A stretch of DNA of 12,400 nucleotides from IMG/VR virus record IMGVR_UViG_2778261689_000004. One strand, 5' to 3'. This DNA is from a virus (taxonomy: Duplodnaviria; Heunggongvirae; Uroviricota; Caudoviricetes). Numbering within the stretch: position 1 is the first letter of the stretch; each line of letters opens with the position of its first letter. A program made the position numbers and the translations under genes. Positions 3,759-11,695 of this stretch are shown piece by piece. Below the pieces are notes generated by a model. That model searched no databases. It saw nothing but the letters and a program-made list of their open reading frames with translations, and had not been told where the DNA came from.

Positions 3759-3929
3759 ATGTCAGAACGTAAAAACTCAAAATCACGCTGTAATTATCTC
3801 GTTAAATGTTCCTGCCCAAACTGCACCCAAGAGTCAGAACACAGTTTTTCAAGAGTACAAAAAGGTGCCCTTTTGATCTGCCCTCATTGCAACAAAGTAT
3901 TCCAGACAAATCTTAAAGCTGTAGCCTGA
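3759..3929 (+). CDS. Small zinc-ribbon protein, 56 aa (possibly YnfU-equivalent)
   Basis: MSERKNSKSRCNYLVKCSCPNCTQESEHSFSRVQKGALLICPHCNKVFQTNLKAVA with paired CxxC motifs (CPNC ... CPHC); AGGA about 8 nt before the ATG at 3759; the 17-codon upstream extension of the track ORF has no ribosome-binding site. Confidence 0.5.
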   Translation: MSERKNSKSRCNYLVKCSCPNCTQESEHSFSRVQKGALLICPHCNKVFQTNLKAVA

Positions 3930-3985
3930 TTGATTTTATTAGTAACAAGTATTTTTTATATTTTAATAATATATTTAAAGCAGAT

Positions 3986-6826: not shown

Positions 6827-6951
6827 CCATGCTGTCAGATTTTGTTGAGCAAGCAGCTCCAGTGATTCCGATGTCTGGTCCCTCTTATCCCTGCGCGCTA
6901 CTTAAGTATTTTTGATTCTATTCCGGCACCGTCCAGAACTTCAAACGCGTT

Positions 6952-6984
6952 GAAAATAAAAACAAAAACCCGCCGAAGCGGGTT
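6952..6984 (-). terminator. Rho-independent terminator of the relB-relE-hokD operon
   Basis: Stem AACCCGC / GCGGGTT with loop CGAA (6967-6984), followed on the minus strand by UUUGUUUUUAUUUU; about 70 nt downstream of the hokD stop. Confidence 0.6.
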
Positions 6985-7052
6985 AAGTGCGGGTGCGTTG
7001 AGGATGCCTGCCACATCAGAGGTGGCGAGGGATTTCTCCCCCGCCGGGTCTC

Positions 7053-7208
7053 TTACTCCTCAGGTTCGTAAGCTGTGAAGACAGCGACCTCCGTCTGGCC
7101 GGTTCGGATTCGTACCTCGCAGAGGTCTTTCCTCGTTACCAGTGCCGTCACTATGACGGTTAAACAGATGACGATCAGGGCGATTAACATCGCCTTTTGC
7201 TGCTTCAT
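7053..7208 (-). CDS. hokD: Hok-family type I toxin HokD (RelF), 51 aa (below the ORF-track cutoff)
   Basis: Hand translation gives MKQQKAMLIALIVICLTVIVTALVTRKDLCEVRIRTGQTEVAVFTAYEPEE; AGGAG ribosome-binding site upstream; immediately downstream of relE. Confidence 0.9.
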   Translation of the reverse strand: MKQQKAMLIALIVICLTVIVTALVTRKDLCEVRIRTGQTEVAVFTAYEPEE

Positions 7209-7279
7209 AGCCTGCTTCTCCTGTCAACGCAAAGCAGAAGTGTCACCTTCGGTGCGAAACAGAGATGTCATGCTTTGGT

Positions 7280-7567
7280 TCAGAGAATGCGTTTGACCGC
7301 CTCGCTATATACTTCCGAGCGTTCTCTTTTCCCAACAGAAATCACGAAAACGACAACTTTCTCGTCTATAACCTGGTATACAAGGCGATAGCCTGAAGAC
7401 CGGAGCTTAATCTTGTAACAATCAGGCATACCACGGAGCTTGTTTGCTTCAATCCGGGGTGACTCAAGTACTTCAACCAGCTTCTTTTTCAACTGTTCAC
7501 GTACCGTCGAGCCCAGCTTTCGCCATTCCTTTAGTGCCCGCTCGTCAAAATCCAGAAAATACGCCAT
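7280..7567 (-). CDS. relE: RelE mRNA-interferase toxin, 95 aa
   Basis: MAYFLDFDERALKEWRKLGSTVREQLKKKL... matches RelE as I recall it; start overlaps the relB stop. Confidence 0.95.
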   Translation of the reverse strand: MAYFLDFDERALKEWRKLGSTVREQLKKKLVEVLESPRIEANKLRGMPDCYKIKLRSSGYRLVYQVIDEKVVVFVISVGKRERSEVYSEAVKRIL

Positions 7568-7806
7568 CAGAGTTCATCCAGCGTCACACGTACTGGCTTA
7601 GGATTACGAAGCCGTTCTTTCACTATCTCCACAAGTTCAGCATCTTCATCACTCAGGAGTGTCTGTTTGAACGGCAAGCGTTCATTGTCAGCGATATACT
7701 CGAGCATGAGACGAAGCGCTTCAGAAGGAGTTACACCCATTTTTTCAAGCGCGGCGTAAGAACGCGCTTTAAGTTCATCGTCAATACGCAGGTTAATGCT
7801 ACCCAT
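7567..7806 (-). CDS. relB: RelB antitoxin, 79 aa
   Basis: MGSINLRIDDELKARSYAALEKMGVTPSEALRLMLEYIAD... matches RelB as I recall it; ATG at 7804-7806. Confidence 0.95.
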   Translation of the reverse strand: MGSINLRIDDELKARSYAALEKMGVTPSEALRLMLEYIADNERLPFKQTLLSDEDAELVEIVKERLRNPKPVRVTLDEL

Positions 7807-7817
7807 GTCTTACACCT

Positions 7818-7870
7818 CTTGTAATTACAAATGTCATTACAAGTATCGCACTACAACATGCTTAGGGCAA
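7818..7870 (-). promoter_or_regulatory. relBE promoter/operator region (relO-like hexad repeats plus candidate -35 TTGCCC / -10 GATACT)
   Basis: Perfect 12-bp palindrome TTGTAATTACAA (7819-7830), and flanking inverted repeats CTTGTAAT (7818-7825) / ATTACAAG (7836-7843), lie 12-37 bp upstream of the relB ATG; candidate -10 at 7842-7847 and -35 at 7865-7870 with a 17-bp spacer. Confidence 0.55.
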
Positions 7871-8136
7871 GTCACGAAGGAAGTCAGAAAGTAGTCGTAA
7901 GAACGGTGATCACTGTCCGCTTTGTGCCAGGAGCAGCCATTGCTAAGTCCATCCTGTATTGTGCAGGTCAGCTCGTTTTTAAAGAGTCCGGCCATCATCT
8001 TACTGGTACAGACACCATATACTTTGTGACGGTCAGGCTACATATGCACAACTCAACTTATTCATCTATTTTTTGCTTTAGCATGTCAGTGTTGCTTTCT
8101 CGTCGGCGGGTGAGCGGTGACCTGACCTGTCGATAA
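7831..8136 (+). CDS. ydfV: Doubtful ORF overlapping the relBE operator (position of K-12 ydfV), 101 aa
   Basis: ATG-initiated ORF with no ribosome-binding site, starting inside the relO palindromes; low-complexity translation. Listed only because an ORF is annotated here in K-12 as I recall. Confidence 0.25.
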   Translation: MSLQVSHYNMLRASHEGSQKVVVRTVITVRFVPGAAIAKSILYCAGQLVFKESGHHLTGTDTIYFVTVRLHMHNSTYSSIFCFSMSVLLSRRRVSGDLTCR

Positions 8137-8288
8137 AGGAACGTAACACGTTTTATGCAACACCCGCATGCGGCAGAAAATTATTGCCGAACGTTTACCC
8201 CTGTCAACAAGCTTTACTTTCTGAGGCGCGCCAGCCCGCGAGGAAAACAATCTGAACATCAAACAATTAATGACACAAGAAATACGAT

Positions 8289-8315
8289 TAAAGATTTTTT
8301 TGTGCATGCCGATAG
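8289..8315 (+). promoter_or_regulatory. Sigma28 (FliA) class 3 flagellar promoter upstream of flxA
   Basis: TAAAGATT-N11-GCCGATAG against the consensus TAAAGTTT-N11-GCCGATAA; followed by AAAGGAG and the flxA ATG at 8339. Confidence 0.7.
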
Positions 8316-8338
8316 TGCTTTTTTAAAAGGAGAAATCT

Positions 8339-8671
8339 ATGTCTGTCACAATTCAGGGAAATACCTCAACCGTTATTTCAAACAACTCCGCCCCGGAAGG
8401 AACATCAGAAATAGCCAAAATCACAAGACAAATTCAGGTGCTGACTGAAAAGCTTGGGAAAATCTCATCGGAAGAGGGGATGACGACACAGCAGAAAAAA
8501 GAAATGGCTGCATTGGTACAGAAGCAAATTGAAAGCCTCTGGGCTCAACTGGAGCAGTTGTTAAGGCAGCAGGCAGAGAAAAAGAATGAAGACGCGACAG
8601 TTCAGCCTGATAAAAAAGAAGAGAAAAAAGACGATACAAATACCGCTGGCACCATTGATATTTACGTCTAA
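8339..8671 (+). CDS. flxA: FlxA (FliA-regulated protein), 110 aa
   Basis: MSVTIQGNTSTVISNNSAPEGTSEIAKITRQIQVLTEKLGK... matches FlxA as I recall it; preceded by a strong ribosome-binding site and the sigma28 promoter. Confidence 0.9.
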   Translation: MSVTIQGNTSTVISNNSAPEGTSEIAKITRQIQVLTEKLGKISSEEGMTTQQKKEMAALVQKQIESLWAQLEQLLRQQAEKKNEDATVQPDKKEEKKDDTNTAGTIDIYV

Positions 8672-8685
8672 GTGACAGCCGTATT

Positions 8686-8708
8686 GTGGCCCTCATCGGG
8701 CCACTTTT
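8686..8708 (+). terminator. Intrinsic terminator downstream of flxA
   Basis: Stem GTGGCCC / GGGCCAC with loop TCATC, followed by TTTTCG, 15 nt after the flxA stop. Confidence 0.55.
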
Positions 8709-8878
8709 CGCCATCAGCCTTTTCTTTAAAGACATATTATCTTTGTATCATTTCTGATAGTTAACATTACAAGATATAAGTAATGGACGCACTCCCAATT
8801 AGTCTATTTAAATCGCCACGAGTTTAACTGACAACCCATGATCAATTATGAATTGCAACTATTTCTGTAGTCACTTTT

Positions 8879-10719
8879 GTGGGGACAGTCCACAAAACTG
8901 CCAACTTCCGCTTCTTGCTCTTAGCGGACATTAGCATAGGCTATTTACCATAACGCCTCATTACGCGCACCGCCCAGACTGACTCAGCGCGTTTCTGGCA
9001 TATCCCCGGTAAAACAAGTAACAAACCACCCGAAAATGAACACCAGAAACGCGACTTAAGAATCTACCCTATGAATGGATATGCACTCAACCGAATCGAT
9101 CTTGGTTTCAATCTTTTTTATCGGGATCAGGCTTCTTTTTAGGTAACTTCGGGGGCTTAACTTGCTGATGACTTTGCGTTCGGCGCGTAAGCCAGGGATG
9201 GTCAGCTTTAGGTTTAACATAGTATTTTGAGCGTAAATCAATACGGGCATTATCCACTCGTTCATGGACACTCTTTTCATCATCCAGTGGTATAGGCTCC
9301 GGGCCATCAACATACTTTTCCCAGCCCAGCGCTTTCCCGTCATACAGAACGTTAATTTCACCGTCAAAGTTCTCGCATACAGTAACAACCGAATGCCTAA
9401 GTCGATATCCCCGGCCCTCACTGCGTACCTGAAACGCACTGCTTTTGTACTGGAAAGTGAGATTTTTAGACAGAACGCGCTTCGCCTGTAGGCTGAAGAT
9501 ATAACCCAGTTCCTCTTCAGAATGGTGCACATCAAGATGAGCATTATCAGTAGTACGAGGCGACGTAGCGAACCGGTTGTTATAGGCTTCAATAAAGGTC
9601 GGCAACCATGCATTTGCTGTTTCAATATCACTGATATTCTGAAGCCGCATTTCTTTGACCAGCCTGTCCTGTAGTGTCTGATTGGCGCGCTCTACCCGCC
9701 CTTTTGCCTGCGGGCTGTTGGCATGGATTGGCTCGATGCCCAGTGTCTTTATCGCACGAGTGAACTGGGTCAGCTCACCTTCCCGCTCTGGGTTATTTAC
9801 CCTGAATATACTGTGTCTATCAGAGTAGAGAGCGAGCGGTACGCCATGATCATTAAGGTAACCCCGGAGGGTTTCCATGTAAGCCCGGGTTGTTTCAGCA
9901 GGCACAAAACGCAACGCCATCAACGCACTGGTGGCATCATCAATGAAAACGATCAGTGTACATCTGGGGCCTCGATTTTCAAACCAGTCATGAGGTGAGC
10001 CATCAATCTGGATCAGTTCACCGTAAGATGGTCGTCGCATGCGGCGTTGATATATACGGGCAATTTTACGACGGCGTTCACGCCATAACCCCTCTTCTAT
10101 CATCCACTTTCTGAGAGTTTCAACGGATAAAGATAAACCGTGTATCTCGCGCAATTTTTCGCACGCAAACGTAGGTCCAAAATCAGCGTAACGGCCTTTG
10201 AGGAGTGAAATTACTGTTGCTCTGAATTCAGTAGAAAAGGAATTATTAGGACGCTTTCCACGTCGGTGGGAAACCAGACCAGAAGGCCCTTCATTTCTAT
10301 ACCGTTGCACCAGACGTTTAACCTGCCGAATAGAAATGCCAATGCGTGCCGCAGCTTGTTCCTGAATAATCTGAAGTCGGTGGAGTTCCTTATGACTCAT
10401 CGTAACAGTCTCTTTGATCATGAAAAATCCCCCAGAGAATTGTCTGGGGACATTTTAGAATGGTTCAAAGGGGACATTACAGCTTGGTGTTAACAATAGC
10501 CTGCTTCTCCGTGCCTTTCGGCACGTAAGAGGCTAACCTACATGTGTCTAGCATGAAATTGGCCTCAGATTAATGTTAAGCGTCTTGCAGGACGCGTAAT
10601 GTTAACTGGGGCTTTTCTCTATCTGCCGTTGGTGTCCATGCCCGAGGCAGATAGCCTCAAGCACCCGCAGTCATTCTACTTAACTAAGATTTCCCCGCAA
10701 ACCGTTTTTGTCCAGCACA
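8879..10719 (-). mobile_element. IS-like element carrying one DDE transposase gene; ends tentative
   Basis: The 437-aa transposase (9108-10421) is flanked by unusually structured non-coding DNA. Tentative termini are TGTGGGGACA at 8879 and the reverse complement TGTG-CT-GGACA ending at 10719; this short imperfect match is all that supports them. No clear target-site duplication found. Confidence 0.3.
9108..10421 (-). CDS. DDE-type transposase (rve integrase core with N-terminal helix-turn-helix; IS481 / ISNCY-IS1202-like), 437 aa
   Basis: N-terminal HTH-like region (IGISIRQVKRLVQRY), candidate catalytic residues in LIQIDGSPHDWFE, LYSDRHSIF and KGRVERANQTL (D, D, E with downstream basic residues), basic C-terminal tail. 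Not one of the K-12 insertion sequences I can recall. Confidence 0.85.
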   Translation of the reverse strand: MIKETVTMSHKELHRLQIIQEQAAARIGISIRQVKRLVQRYRNEGPSGLVSHRRGKRPNNSFSTEFRATVISLLKGRYADFGPTFACEKLREIHGLSLSVETLRKWMIEEGLWRERRRKIARIYQRRMRRPSYGELIQIDGSPHDWFENRGPRCTLIVFIDDATSALMALRFVPAETTRAYMETLRGYLNDHGVPLALYSDRHSIFRVNNPEREGELTQFTRAIKTLGIEPIHANSPQAKGRVERANQTLQDRLVKEMRLQNISDIETANAWLPTFIEAYNNRFATSPRTTDNAHLDVHHSEEELGYIFSLQAKRVLSKNLTFQYKSSAFQVRSEGRGYRLRHSVVTVCENFDGEINVLYDGKALGWEKYVDGPEPIPLDDEKSVHERVDNARIDLRSKYYVKPKADHPWLTRRTQSHQQVKPPKLPKKKPDPDKKD

Positions 10720-10755
10720 GTAAATATCCAACTAAACCAATGGAGTTCGCTGTAT

Positions 10756-10935
10756 TTACCGCCAGTATTCAATGCACATGACCGCCATGAACACCCCTAA
10801 AAAAAGGGCATTTATATATCCAAATATTAATATCAAAACATCAACTTTTTCCATATACCTTGCTGTGAAGATGATGGGCATACATGATGCGAACAACCAG
10901 AACGCAACAAACAAAAACTGCAATGCGTTTTTCAT
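10756..10935 (-). CDS. Small membrane protein with two predicted transmembrane helices, 59 aa
   Basis: ATG at 10933-10935 preceded by a perfect AGGAGG 6 nt upstream; MKNALQFLFVAFWLFASCMPIIFTARYMEKVDVLILIFGYINALFLGVFMAVMCIEYWR has two hydrophobic segments. The track ORF extends to a GTG at 10974 with no ribosome-binding site. Could correspond to the K-12 ydfW/intK-region ORF, unverified. Confidence 0.5.
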   Translation of the reverse strand: MKNALQFLFVAFWLFASCMPIIFTARYMEKVDVLILIFGYINALFLGVFMAVMCIEYWR

Positions 10936-11398
10936 TATTCCTCCTACAATCAATGTGCAATTACATTTAAACACACCTCAATTTGGCCGGACATATAAAT
11001 ATCTAAACCAGAAAAAATCACTTACATAGCGTTACAAACTCTTTAGTCTAAAGGTTCATCGTAAAACATTCCCCATACTTATCAGTCCGTTCCGCGCCAG
11101 GTAGCTCATTGCCTTATCTGGCAACCTGTAATCAGGTTTCCGCTTTTTCAGTTGGCTGGTCGTTTAACCGACATAGTTAATCCATTAATCTAGTTGCCGG
11201 ATGTTGGTGGATTTTCGCGTTTTAGTTGTTCATAAAAGTGCACAGCTTTAACCAGTTCTTCTGATGTAACTGGGACTGGTGAGGCAGTGAATAAGGCCTG
11301 AATTTGATAGTTCGGCCTGTCGTTACAATCCTCTTTTTTCGGTACATATTTCCAGTCACCAGACCACTACTTCCCCTGAAAGTCCGTAACGCCTTTTT

Positions 11399-11695
11399 TC
11401 ACGTAGGCTCTTTTGGTCGCATGATCTCGCCATCATCACTGGCTGCCTGTTCGTAGAGACCCACGATCCGCCCCCAGATCCACTGCGCACACGCCAAATC
11501 CTCCCTGCTAACGCCAAGCGCTCGCTGATCAATCGCGCCACCTTCATATGTGACACGCTGAACATCGATGTTCGGGCGCTCTTTCAAAGCCCAGAATGCT
11601 TCAGTGATTAATATCGTCGCCTGCTCCTGTGTCATTCCTGGTCGACATATCCAGGCATCCAGAGCCTCACGAGCCTGTTCAGGAGTGATTTTCAT
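11399..11695 (-). CDS. Hypothetical prophage protein downstream of dicC (YdfX-like), 98 aa
   Basis: ATG-initiated ORF overlapping the 3' end of dicC by 17 nt, suggesting translational coupling; position matches ydfX of K-12 Qin as I recall. Confidence 0.55.
   Translation of the reverse strand: MKITPEQAREALDAWICRPGMTQEQATILITEAFWALKERPNIDVQRVTYEGGAIDQRALGVSREDLACAQWIWGRIVGLYEQAASDDGEIMRPKEPT

What the first reader, a model, noticed from the sequence alone, without database searches (positions are those of the whole stretch)
8875..9053. Perfect inverted repeats downstream of the transposase stop
Two structures lie between the flxA terminator and the transposase stop: a perfect 8-bp inverted repeat TTTTGTGG-GGACAGT-CCACAAAA (8875-8897), and an 11-bp perfect inverted repeat CGCGTTTCTGG (8988-8998) / CCAGAAACGCG (9043-9053) separated by 44 nt. 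Perfect 11-bp arms are unlikely by chance in 12 kb. They may be subterminal structures of the IS, a recombination or binding site, or a large structured RNA element downstream of the transposase gene.
Basis: seen in the sequence. Interest (0 to 1): 0.4.

Follow-up and report, generated by a model that had tools for sequence, protein, structure and literature searches.

The report
Plasmid dimer-resolution site inside an IS
The 11-bp inverted repeat is the stem of an Rcd-type small RNA within a ColE1-cer-like XerCD dimer-resolution site carried inside an ISEsa1-family insertion sequence in the Qin prophage (also present, unannotated, in E. coli K-12), and the 8-bp hairpin is an ordinary junction feature.

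Summary
Both repeats exist exactly as described. Neither is rare by count: 24.5% of shuffles contain an 11-bp perfect repeat and 76% an 8-bp hairpin.

The 11-bp repeat is nevertheless real. On the minus strand, window 8943-8971 is a consensus XerC arm / 7-bp centre / XerD arm. About 107 bp upstream lies an ArgR-box-like sequence, spaced as in ColE1 cer. The repeat occupies the position of the closing stem of the Rcd RNA. In 52 distinct cer-like sites this stem is 94% paired. Eleven of 16 pairs carry compensatory changes, and frequent G·U pairs fit only the minus strand. A covariance model built only from transposase-free sites hits window 8965-9060(-) at 67.5 bits (E about 1e-17).

This cer/Rcd module lies inside the conserved unit of an ISEsa1-type (IS1202-family) element (about 8890/8907 to 10495). 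It is found in at least 10 different flanks and down to about 70% identity. Regular relatives (62% aa) lack it.

E. coli K-12 is not an empty site. It keeps the whole module, and ydfW is the transposase tail.

The 8-bp hairpin straddles the IS/Qin junction and is absent from other copies.

Verdict: a known kind of element in an apparently unreported setting. Activity here is untested.

The parts
9043..9053 (-).
   Evidence: Equals alignment columns 9-19 of A2, paired with columns 64-74.
8988..8998 (-).
   Evidence: ColE1 has CGTGATCGCGC at the same aligned place, pairing with GCGCGATCGCG.
9008..9031 (-). Conserved apical region of the Rcd-type RNA: GGGTGGTTTGTTACTTGTTTTACC
   Evidence: Invariant GGGTGGTTTGTT...TTTTACC in ColE1 and in all plasmid and metagenome cer-like sites collected.
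8975..9056 (-). Approximate extent of the Rcd-like small RNA gene (ends inferred by alignment to ColE1, not mapped)
   Evidence: Minus-strand RNA folds to -31.4 kcal/mol (z -3.3), against -18.8 for the plus strand. Covariance model R1, built only from transposase-free sites, hits 8965-9060(-) at 67.5 bits, E about 1e-17; the plus strand scores 9.6 bits.
9061..9086 (-). Pcer-like promoter region: GTGCAT, 14 nt, TAGATT. It aligns to ColE1 TTGCAT-15-TAAAAT but is 2 nt shorter, so possibly weakened
   Evidence: Alignments. The position of Pcer relative to Rcd follows PMC2831885. The sigma-70 scan with 16-18 nt spacers did not call it.
9072..9085 (-). ArgR-box-like sequence TGCATATCCATTCA
   Evidence: Aligns to ColE1 TGCATAGGTATTCA (L003 3796-3809). 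The box centre is about 107 nt from the XerC arm in both.
8961..8971 (-). XerC-binding arm GGTGCGCGTAA
   Evidence: Zero mismatches to GGTGCGYRYAA; the only such core in the window. Aligned to the ColE1 cer core at L003 3909-3938.
8954..8960 (-). 7-bp central (crossover) region TGAGGCG
   Evidence: The identical core occurs in transposase-free plasmid sites L004 and L134. The central region varies among IS copies: TGAGGCG, TGCGGCG, TGGGGCG, TGAGACC.
8943..8953 (-). XerD-binding arm TTATGGTAAAT
   Evidence: Homology to transposase-free plasmid sites stops here.
8943..9160 (-). Whole cer-like multimer-resolution site (core plus about 190 bp of accessory sequence). The upstream part overlaps the last codons of the transposase ORF
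   Evidence: BLAST to 3,494 plasmids. The upstream A-tract pattern GAAGTTACCTAAAAAGAAGCC aligns with accessory regions of other cer-like sites; this part is suggestive only.
9108..10421 (-). ISEsa1-family (IS1202-family) transposase, 437 aa. It carries a 9-aa in-frame deletion relative to sister copies
   Evidence: Pfam HTH_32/29/28 plus rve_3. RefSeq name 'IS1202-like element ISEsa1 family transposase'. 62% identity to a Hahella IS transposase over residues 1-410. 27-bp deletion after window 10366.
10470..10495 (-). Left terminal inverted repeat (IRL): TGTTAACACCAAGCTGTAATGTCCCC, read from 10495 inward
   Evidence: Matches the IRL of the Hahella and chlamydial relatives. It is the common boundary of all enterobacterial copies.
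8907..8928 (.). Conserved end hairpin TCCGCT-N10-AGCGGA. Last block shared by all ISEsa1-clade copies; contains the IRR-like box GCGGA(C/A)(A/G)T
   Evidence: One compensatory variant in L019 (CTGCT/AGCAG).
8886..8911 (-). Probable degenerate right inverted repeat (IRR) tip. The right end of the IS is fuzzy, somewhere between 8888 and 8907
   Evidence: L213 (same transposase protein, different flank) is homologous to the window down to 8895 and L024 down to 8892; other copies diverge right after GCGGA.
8875..8897 (.). It sits at the IS/Qin junction and is not part of the cer/Rcd module
   Evidence: Absent from other IS copies. Kept with the flxA cassette in a P2-like prophage of E. coli H10. 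Chance-level frequency.
10496..10666 (-). hok/sok leader remnant abutting the IRL; the IS begins after the 'AT' of the hok start codon
   Evidence: Rfam sok RF01794 at 104 bits. Alignment to the window's own hokD leader and start...GGAGAAGCAGGCTAT|TGTTAAC versus ...GGAGAAGCAGGCTATGAAG.

Best explanation
The 11-bp inverted repeat is the DNA image of the basal stem of an Rcd-type small RNA encoded on the minus strand. This RNA gene lies in the accessory region of a ColE1-cer-type multimer-resolution site. On the minus strand the site reads: ArgR box and Pcer-like promoter (9086-9061), Rcd-like gene (about 9056-8975), then XerC arm / 7-bp centre / XerD arm (8971-8943).

In plasmids, XerC and XerD recombine two such cores. 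ArgR and PepA, bound to the roughly 190-bp accessory DNA, restrict the reaction to resolving dimers. The promoter inside the site fires in dimers to make Rcd, which stimulates tryptophanase and indole production and pauses growth until resolution is complete. These functions are established for ColE1 and are inferred here.

In this window the whole module is an internal passenger of an ISEsa1-family (IS1202-family) element, between the transposase stop and the degenerate right end. The element sits in the Qin prophage with its left end in the start codon of a hok gene.

The 8-bp hairpin is a separate feature. One arm lies in the probable right-end tip of the IS and the other in Qin DNA. It shows no sign of conservation or function.

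Shown here: sequence homology, site architecture, RNA-level covariation, and inclusion in the conserved IS unit. Inferred: Xer/ArgR/PepA dependence, transcription of the RNA, and any activity at this chromosomal site.
For: - Core: the only XerCD-type core in the window, with 0 mismatches in both arms, is at 8943-8971(-). The remembered ColE1 cer core was found exactly at ColE1 3909-3938, and the window aligns to ColE1 3844-3938.
- Distribution: 3,494 plasmid records match window 8900-9110. Most are small ColE1-type plasmids with no transposase, and they match only about 8943-9053/9096.
- Covariation: in 52 distinct sites the 16-pair stem containing the repeat is 94.1% paired, against 36-53% when partners are slid. 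Eleven of 16 pairs have double changes (140 cells). The covariation score is 0.509, against 0.07-0.20 for slid controls, and 0 of 500 shuffles reach it. RNAalifold finds the same stem on its own.
- Three arm types replace one another: TTTCTGG/CCAGAAA, GATCGCGG/CCGTGATC and GAACGGGG/CCCCGTTT.
- Strand: about 115 of 831 cells are G·U, which pair only on the minus strand. That matches the published accessory-to-core direction of rcd (PMC2831885). Fold energy is -31.4 (minus) against -18.8 kcal/mol (plus).
- Model test: a covariance model built without the window or any IS-borne copy gives 67.5 bits, E about 1e-17 on the minus strand and 9.6 bits on the plus strand.
- ArgR-like box at the same distance from the core as in ColE1.
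- IS membership: all enterobacterial relatives with a recognisable core (78-98% aa) have it 139-145 bp past the transposase match. The shared unit runs from about 8907 to 10495 in at least 10 different right flanks and about 16 left flanks, including copies about 70% identical.
- Regular relatives in Hahella and Chlamydiae (50-62% aa) have clean inverted repeats. The Hahella copies show 15-16-bp target duplications and end 66 bp after the transposase stop, and neither group has a core nearby.
- Evidence of Xer activity: in L020 a 1,140-bp insert flanked by XerCD-type cores sits exactly at the IS-borne core.
Against: - The promoter is not canonical in this lineage: GTGCAT-14-TAGATT, 2 nt shorter than in the family alignment. 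The promoter scan did not call it, so the RNA may not be made.
- There is no intrinsic terminator after the stem, unlike ColE1.
- The upstream third of the accessory region overlaps transposase codons and resembles other cer sites only loosely.
- A single chromosomal copy has no partner site to resolve, so here the module may be inert.
- The metagenome set was collected with the conserved loop motif, which biases the sample towards close Rcd relatives. This does not create covariation in the arms.
- The right end of the IS is not sharply defined and there is no target duplication. 'Inside the IS' therefore rests on shared boundaries, not on a demonstrated transposition event.
Confidence: 0.85

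Rival explanations
1. The cer/Rcd module here is a decaying fossil. It is homologous to plasmid sites, but in this single chromosomal copy it is neither transcribed nor recombined. The perfect 11-bp repeat is then simply inherited sequence.
For: The promoter spacer is 14 nt and the -10 box is TAGATT, against TAAAAT in ColE1 and in the 70%-identity IS group. The window's transposase has a 9-aa deletion, and in K-12 it is cut down to ydfW. No partner site exists in the window.
Against: Both Xer arms are at full consensus, and they are preserved in IS copies about 70% identical while the central regions vary. The stem is kept by compensatory changes among IS-borne copies too (window UG/GU/UA against L007 CG/GC/UA/GC). 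L020 shows recombination at an IS-borne core.
Confidence: 0.35
2. The 11-bp repeat acts at the DNA level, as a protein-binding palindrome, a cruciform, or part of the PepA/ArgR architecture, rather than as an RNA stem.
For: It lies in DNA that PepA covers in ColE1 cer (established knowledge; review PMC5357621). A perfect repeat could in principle extrude as a cruciform.
Against: About 14% of stem cells are G·U, which would be A·C mismatches in DNA or on the other strand. The arm sequences are replaced wholesale between classes while pairing is kept, so a sequence-specific protein site is unlikely. The 44-nt spacer disfavours a cruciform.
Confidence: 0.08
3. The repeats are subterminal transposase-binding structures of the IS, or a terminator or 3'-UTR stabiliser for the transposase mRNA.
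For: They lie between the transposase stop and the IS end.
Against: The same stem-loop is present in thousands of plasmids without any transposase. The transposase-type boxes of this IS family are GGGGACAT repeats at the ends, not these arms. Regular relatives of the IS lack the region altogether. No T-run follows either hairpin.
Confidence: 0.04
4. The 8-bp hairpin (8875-8897) is functional, for example a target-site or inverted-repeat-tip structure recognised by the transposase, or a Qin regulatory palindrome.
For: One arm overlaps the putative IRR tip. L024 has TTTTGTCCAC at the same distance from the end. The loop contains GGGGACA, the family's inverted-repeat box. It is retained with the flxA cassette in a P2-like prophage.
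Against: Absent from L213, L006, L017, L019, L023, L034, L037 and L039. 76% of shuffles contain such a hairpin. There is no sequence variation among the roughly 1,150 E. coli genomes that carry it, so selection cannot be tested. No T-run or promoter logic.
Confidence: 0.15

Closest known systems
ColE1 cer and related plasmid multimer-resolution sites (ckr, parB of CloDF13, mwr and others), dependent on XerCD/ArgR/PepA
   Same: 11-bp XerC and XerD arms at consensus. ArgR-type box about 107 bp from the core. Accessory DNA on the XerC side. Alignable to ColE1 cer over 95 nt and to Klebsiella ColE1-type plasmid sites at 75-82%.
   Different: 7-bp central region rather than ColE1's 8 bp, although this is common among natural plasmid sites. 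Located on a chromosome, in a prophage, inside an insertion sequence. The upstream accessory part overlaps a transposase ORF. No partner site is present.
Rcd, the ~70-nt regulatory RNA encoded within ColE1 cer (Patient & Summers 1993; reviews PMC4393325, PMC5357621)
   Same: Same position, between the ArgR box/Pcer and the XerC arm. Same strand. Same invariant GGGUGGUUUGUU...UUUUACC apical region. Same long closing stem, supported by covariation.
   Different: The closing-stem sequence is of the Klebsiella class (UUUCUGG/CCAGAAA) and is perfect for 11 bp; most relatives have a G·U there. The promoter is 2 nt shorter with a weaker -10 box. There is no ColE1-like terminator hairpin with a U-run. 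Rfam 15 has no matching model even for ColE1 itself.
IS1202 family insertion sequences: ISEsa1 (1609 bp, IR 15/22, no target duplication; PMC10132070) and the xrs-targeting ISAba32/ISAjo2 subgroup (bioRxiv 10.1101/2022.12.17.520857)
   Same: HTH plus DDE transposase of 437-446 aa. TGT-starting left inverted repeat with GGGGACAT boxes. No target duplication, as published for ISEsa1. A physical association between this IS family and XerCD sites.
   Different: ISAba32-type IS insert 5-6 bp outside the XerC arm of a pre-existing site, left end first. Here a complete cer-like site, with accessory DNA and an Rcd gene, lies inside the conserved unit on the transposase-3' side. Neither paper's main text describes an internal Xer site for ISEsa1.
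IMEX elements and Acinetobacter dif modules (DNA segments that move by host XerCD recombination)
   Same: In the related copy L020, two small gene modules are bracketed by directly repeated XerCD-type cores exactly at the IS-borne core. The distal cores have degenerate XerC arms, as in IMEX attachment sites.
   Different: Seen in one lineage only, plus 4 Citrobacter plasmids. Not present in the window, and no free circular form was identified.

Membership tests
cer-type XerCD multimer-resolution site | Core of an 11-bp XerC arm, a 6-8 bp central region and an 11-bp XerD arm | tested here: met
   GGTGCGCGTAA-TGAGGCG-TTATGGTAAAT at 8971-8943(-), 0 mismatches to the arm consensus; the only such site in the window. 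Aligned to the ColE1 core.
cer-type XerCD multimer-resolution site | About 180-200 bp of accessory sequence on the XerC side, with an ArgR box about 100 bp from the core | tested here: met
   TGCATATCCATTCA at 9085-9072, with its centre about 107 nt from the XerC arm, against about 106 nt in ColE1. The part upstream of the box resembles other sites only loosely.
cer-type XerCD multimer-resolution site | Recombination depends on XerC, XerD, ArgR and PepA and resolves plasmid multimers | not testable with these tools
   Needs a two-site reporter plasmid in wild-type and mutant hosts. The only indirect hint is the core-flanked insert in L020.
Rcd regulatory RNA | Encoded between the ArgR box/Pcer and the XerC arm, and transcribed towards the core | tested here: met
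   Position and strand were established by alignment to ColE1 and 50 other sites. The direction comes from PMC2831885. G·U asymmetry and fold energy favour the minus strand.
Rcd regulatory RNA | Conserved long closing stem enclosing the GGGUGGUUUGUU apical region | tested here: met
   94.1% of cells paired, 11 of 16 pairs with compensatory changes, 0 of 500 shuffles reach the score. RNAalifold predicts the same stem. Independent covariance model: 67.5 bits, E about 1e-17.
Rcd regulatory RNA | Pcer promoter (-35 and -10 boxes with a short spacer) immediately upstream | tested here: inconclusive
   GTGCAT-14 nt-TAGATT, against ColE1 TTGCAT-15-TAAAAT. There is a 2-nt gap relative to the family. 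Not called by the 16-18 nt spacer scan.
Rcd regulatory RNA | Binds tryptophanase, raises indole and arrests growth when dimers are present | not testable with these tools
   Experimental property (PMC4393325).
IS1202 family (ISEsa1 clade) | Single 400-500-aa transposase with an N-terminal HTH and a DDE (rve) core | tested here: met
   Pfam HTH_32/29/28 and rve_3. 62% identity to a bona fide multi-copy IS transposase in Hahella. RefSeq naming.
IS1202 family (ISEsa1 clade) | Terminal inverted repeats | tested here: inconclusive
   The left repeat is clear: TGTTAACACCAAGCTGTAATGTCCCC, matching relatives. At the right end only the inner box GCGGA(C/A)(A/G)T is conserved, and the tip differs between copies. 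The published IR for ISEsa1 is only 15/22.
IS1202 family (ISEsa1 clade) | Target-site duplication (5-6, 15-18 or 24-29 bp, depending on subgroup) | tested here: not met
   No duplication in any of about 10 contexts. This agrees with the published 'no TSD' for ISEsa1. The Hahella relatives do have 15-16 bp.
xrs-targeting ISAba32/ISAjo2 subgroup | IS left end lies 5-6 bp from the XerC arm of an external Xer site | tested here: not met
   The core is internal and on the transposase-3' side, separated from the transposase stop by about 135 bp of accessory DNA. The left end abuts a hok start codon instead.

The most novel reading that the evidence does not exclude
ISEsa1-clade elements may be an IS1202-family lineage that lost its normal 3' end and right inverted repeat by fusing to a complete cer/Rcd stability module. 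They would now carry a working XerCD site wherever they go. That would give recipient replicons a portable dimer-resolution and checkpoint module. It would also provide a Xer 'landing pad' that captures small gene modules, as in L020, and could allow Xer-mediated rather than transposase-mediated rearrangements. This might explain the missing target duplications and the fuzzy right end. It would also mean that E. coli K-12 carries an unannotated Rcd homologue and cer-type site in Qin.
Probability: 0.35. Interest if true: 0.65.

Novelty: new member of a known kind. Interest (0 to 1): 0.45.

Why it matters
This explains a conspicuous repeat in a much-studied part of the E. coli genome. It shows that the flxA-ydfW 'intergenic' region of K-12 is a plasmid-type Xer recombination site with an Rcd-like RNA gene. 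RefSeq records annotate nothing there.

It also links two lines of work: cer/Rcd plasmid stability, and the recently defined IS1202 family, one subgroup of which targets Xer sites. Here a sister subgroup carries such a site internally.

If the site is active, it could promote Xer-dependent cointegration with ColE1-type plasmids, capture of gene modules, or indole-mediated growth arrest from a chromosomal locus.

Tried and rejected
- Empty site. An artificial flxA-flank/hok-flank junction found no genome covering it among 5,426 E. coli genomes. K-12 is a deletion derivative, not an empty site. E. coli H10 carries the flxA cassette with about 35 bp of the IS right end in a P2-like prophage; this is a remnant, not an empty site.
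- Terminal inverted repeats by direct self-alignment of the two IS ends: nothing convincing. The ends were defined by comparison with multi-copy relatives instead.
- Target duplications at either candidate right end: none.
- Rfam: no family matches the region. ColE1's own Rcd also gets no hit, so this is uninformative.
- Terminator or promoter reading of either hairpin: no terminator-like site. Only two weak minus-strand promoter matches, both outside the module.
- Small-ORF reading. The minus strand could encode a 19-aa hydrophobic peptide from a GTG. By inspection of the sequences, related sites have no in-frame start codon, so this was rejected.
- Near-identical matches without a transposase on large plasmids (H122 and similar) turned out to be IS26-truncated remnants of the same element.
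- A second Xer core in the window that would indicate IMEX-type integration: none.
- Source of the L020 insert among plasmids: found only in 4 Citrobacter plasmids.
Full report
**Observation**

Both inverted repeats are present exactly as described. The 8-bp pair is 8875-8882 / 8890-8897 with a 7-nt loop. The 11-bp pair is 8988-8998 / 9043-9053 with a 44-nt spacer. They lie between flxA (8339-8671, Pfam FlxA) and the stop of a 437-aa minus-strand ORF (9108-10421) that has HTH and rve domains.

By count alone neither repeat is striking. 24.5% of dinucleotide shuffles of the window contain a perfect 11-bp repeat with a spacer of 100 nt or less. 76% contain an 8-bp hairpin, and the window itself has five.

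**Context**

The window is a Qin-type prophage. K-12 DH1 is 100% identical over 6879-9292 and again from 11509, but lacks 9293-11508. K-12 therefore contains both repeats. Its 'ydfW' gene is the last 49 codons of the 437-aa ORF, so K-12 is a deletion derivative and not an empty site.

RefSeq calls the intact ORF an 'IS1202-like element ISEsa1 family' or 'ISNCY family' transposase. No feature is annotated under 8672-9107 in any listed E. coli record.

**What the 11-bp repeat is**

A search of plasmids gave the key lead. About 110-150 nt of the window (roughly 8943-9053/9096) match thousands of small ColE1-type plasmids that carry no transposase: 3,494 records, mostly Klebsiella, at 74-82% identity.

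Read on the minus strand, 8971-8943 is GGTGCGCGTAA-TGAGGCG-TTATGGTAAAT. This is a XerC arm, a 7-bp central region and a XerD arm. It is the only such core in the window and has no mismatch to the arm consensus. I fetched ColE1 and found the canonical cer core at 3909-3938. The window aligns to ColE1 3844-3938.

An ArgR-box-like TGCATATCCATTCA (9085-9072) aligns with ColE1's TGCATAGGTATTCA. Both boxes are centred about 107 nt from the XerC arm.

The repeat falls where ColE1 has GCGCGATCGCG...CGTGATCGCGC. That is a different sequence that still pairs, and it is the closing stem of Rcd. Rcd is the roughly 70-nt RNA made from the Pcer promoter inside cer (PMC4393325, PMC5357621, PMC2831885).

**Covariation test**

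A metagenome scan with the invariant apical motif GGGTGGTTTGTTN5TTTTACC, combined with the loci already in hand, gave 97 distinct 200-nt sites. 52 of the distinct Rcd regions were aligned. Three arm classes replace one another: TTTCTGG/CCAGAAA, GATCGCGG/CCGTGATC and GAACGGGG/CCCCGTTT.

The results for a 16-pair stem that includes the window's 11 pairs:
- 94.1% of cells pair, against 36-53% when partners are slid.
- 11 of 16 pairs show changes on both sides (140 cells).
- The covariation score is 0.509, against 0.07-0.20 for slid controls.
- No shuffle out of 500 reaches these values.

RNAalifold predicts the same stem unaided. About 14% of cells are G·U. These would be mismatches on the other strand, so the constraint acts on an RNA of the minus strand. 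This is the published direction of rcd, from accessory region towards the core.

The minus-strand RNA folds to -31.4 kcal/mol (z -3.3), against -18.8 for the plus strand. ColE1 Rcd gives -40.7.

A covariance model built from 30 transposase-free sites, without the window, hits 8965-9060(-) at 67.5 bits (E about 1e-17). The plus strand scores only 9.6 bits.

Rfam has no matching family even for ColE1's Rcd, so its silence is uninformative.

**Relation to the IS**

Seventy-nine loci encoding relatives of the transposase were fetched. Every enterobacterial relative in which a core is recognisable (78-98% aa identity) has a XerCD core 139-145 bp past the transposase match, in the same orientation. 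This includes the roughly 70%-nt-identity Scandinavium and Dryocola copies, whose cores have the ColE1-type XerC arm and an 8-bp centre.

The block shared between different genomic contexts runs from window 10495 to about 8907. I counted at least 10 different right flanks and about 16 different left flanks.

The left end is a clear inverted repeat, TGTTAACACCAAGCTGTAATGTCCCC. It matches the repeats of multi-copy relatives in Hahella (62% aa) and Chlamydiae (about 50% aa). Those are regular IS of 1449 and about 1466 bp with clean inverted repeats. The Hahella copies show 15-16-bp target duplications and have only 66 bp after the transposase stop, and neither group has a Xer core.

Protein similarity to the Hahella transposase stops at residue 410 of 437. 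The remaining codons overlap DNA that loosely resembles cer accessory sequence. I infer that an ancestral IS lost its 3' end by fusion to a complete cer/Rcd site, and that the composite now behaves as a unit.

The right end is poorly defined. All copies share the hairpin TCCGCT-N10-AGCGGA (8907-8928) and an inverted-repeat-like box GCGGA(C/A)(A/G)T. The following roughly 18 nt differ between copies, and there is no target duplication. This fits the published description of ISEsa1: 1609 bp, IR 15/22, no TSD (PMC10132070).

The xrs-targeting behaviour described for the ISAba32/ISAjo2 subgroup does not apply. Those IS place their left end 5-6 bp from an external XerC arm. Here the site is internal and on the other side.

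**Is the IS-borne site active?**

This could not be tested directly. Points in favour:
- The arms stay at consensus while central regions vary among close copies.
- IS-borne copies keep the stem through compensatory changes.
- In L020 (Citrobacter portucalensis) a 1,140-bp insert carrying two small gene modules sits exactly at the core. It is bracketed by directly repeated XerCD-type cores, and the normal IS right end resumes after the last XerD arm. This is the signature of Xer-mediated integration. The same segment is found only in 4 Citrobacter plasmids.

Points against:
- In the window's lineage the promoter is GTGCAT-14-TAGATT, 2 nt shorter than in the family.
- No terminator follows the stem.
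- There is no partner site.
- The window's transposase has a 9-aa deletion.

**The 8-bp hairpin**

It lies 10-32 bp beyond the last block shared by all copies. L213 encodes the identical transposase protein in a different flank and is homologous to the window only down to 8895. L024 is homologous down to 8892. The other copies diverge earlier. One arm therefore lies in the probable right-end tip of the IS and the other in Qin DNA.

The hairpin travels with the flxA cassette, together with about 35 bp of the IS end, into a P2-like prophage of E. coli H10. I found no conservation elsewhere, no T-run and no promoter logic, and its frequency is at chance level. I treat it as incidental, with a small residual chance that it reflects an end or target structure.

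**Comparison with the known, and verdict**

The 11-bp repeat belongs to a well-known kind of element: the cer-type Xer site with an Rcd RNA. It is a new member of that kind in an unusual setting, inside an IS1202-family element, in a prophage, on the chromosome of E. coli including K-12.

Searches of the paper library found nothing linking Rcd or cer with Qin, flxA or ydfW, or describing an internal Xer site in ISEsa1. This covers only the library searched.

Noticed in passing
L020 3968-5146 (Citrobacter portucalensis A60, ISEsa1-like copy): A 1,140-bp insert sits exactly at the IS-borne XerCD core. Three directly repeated cores are present: GGTACGCGTAA-TGGGGCG-TTATGGTAAAT, ATGTATGCAT-TGCGACG-TTATGGTAAAT and GGTTCCCGTTA-TGAGGCG-TTATGGTAAAT. 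They bracket two small gene modules: a 92-aa ORF annotated DUF2158 in matching plasmids, and 65-aa plus 136-aa lipoprotein-like ORFs. It looks like IMEX- or dif-module-style Xer integration.
   Followed up: partly
window 10496-10666; left flanks of L002, L006, L010, L024, L038: The IS left end starts after the 'AT' or 'ATG' of a hok start codon (...GGAGAAGCAGGCTAT|TGTTAAC) in at least six sequence-divergent hok/sok loci. The rest of hok is not on the other side of the IS. This reflects either strong target preference or selection for toxin inactivation.
   Followed up: partly
window 10366/10367 (within the transposase ORF): The window's transposase lacks 27 bp (9 aa, between TTCAGGA direct repeats) that are present in sister copies (L016, L006). 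The Hahella homologue has nine residues at the same place. The deletion is in the N-terminal DNA-binding region, so this copy is probably inactive.
   Followed up: yes
window 9108-9257 and 9293-11508, against K-12 (L001): K-12 'ydfW' is the C-terminal 49 codons of this transposase. K-12 has lost window 9293-11508: most of the IS, the hok/sok leader remnant and about 1 kb more. 'ydfX' begins beyond the deletion.
   Followed up: yes
window about 6880, against L001 6190-7207: The window lacks about 1 kb that K-12 DH1 has (the 3' part of ydfU through rem).
   Followed up: no
window 8907-8928: The hairpin TCCGCT-N10-AGCGGA is the last block conserved in all ISEsa1-clade copies. L019 has CTGCT/AGCAG, a compensatory change. 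E. coli H10 keeps it without the rest of the IS. Its role (end recognition or otherwise) is unknown.
   Followed up: partly
L085 2640-3230 (E. coli H10, P2-like prophage): The flxA cassette, including window 8700-8929, sits as a moron between the tail-fibre and tail-sheath genes of a P2-like prophage.
   Followed up: partly
L018, L021, L034 (Scandinavium, Leclercia, Escherichia sp.): In these copies the cer/Rcd part is separated from the transposase body by inserts of 0.8-1.4 kb. In L034 the break is within the Rcd 5' arm/loop. These are probably secondary insertions into the module.
   Followed up: no
window 8860-9200: 100% identical to Escherichia phage PhiR42_1 (PV340562, host ECOR13). The IS with its cer/Rcd module is therefore also present in a deposited phage record.
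   Followed up: no
L025-L031, L035, L036, L050 (Hahella sp. SMD15-11); L041-L049, L064, L065, L072 (Rhabdochlamydiaceae MAG): Multi-copy, near-identical IS of 1449 and about 1466 bp related to ISEsa1. They have clean 26-bp inverted repeats; the Hahella copies show 15-16-bp target duplications and include one tandem pair (L026). They serve as a useful reference for the ancestral ends.
   Followed up: yes
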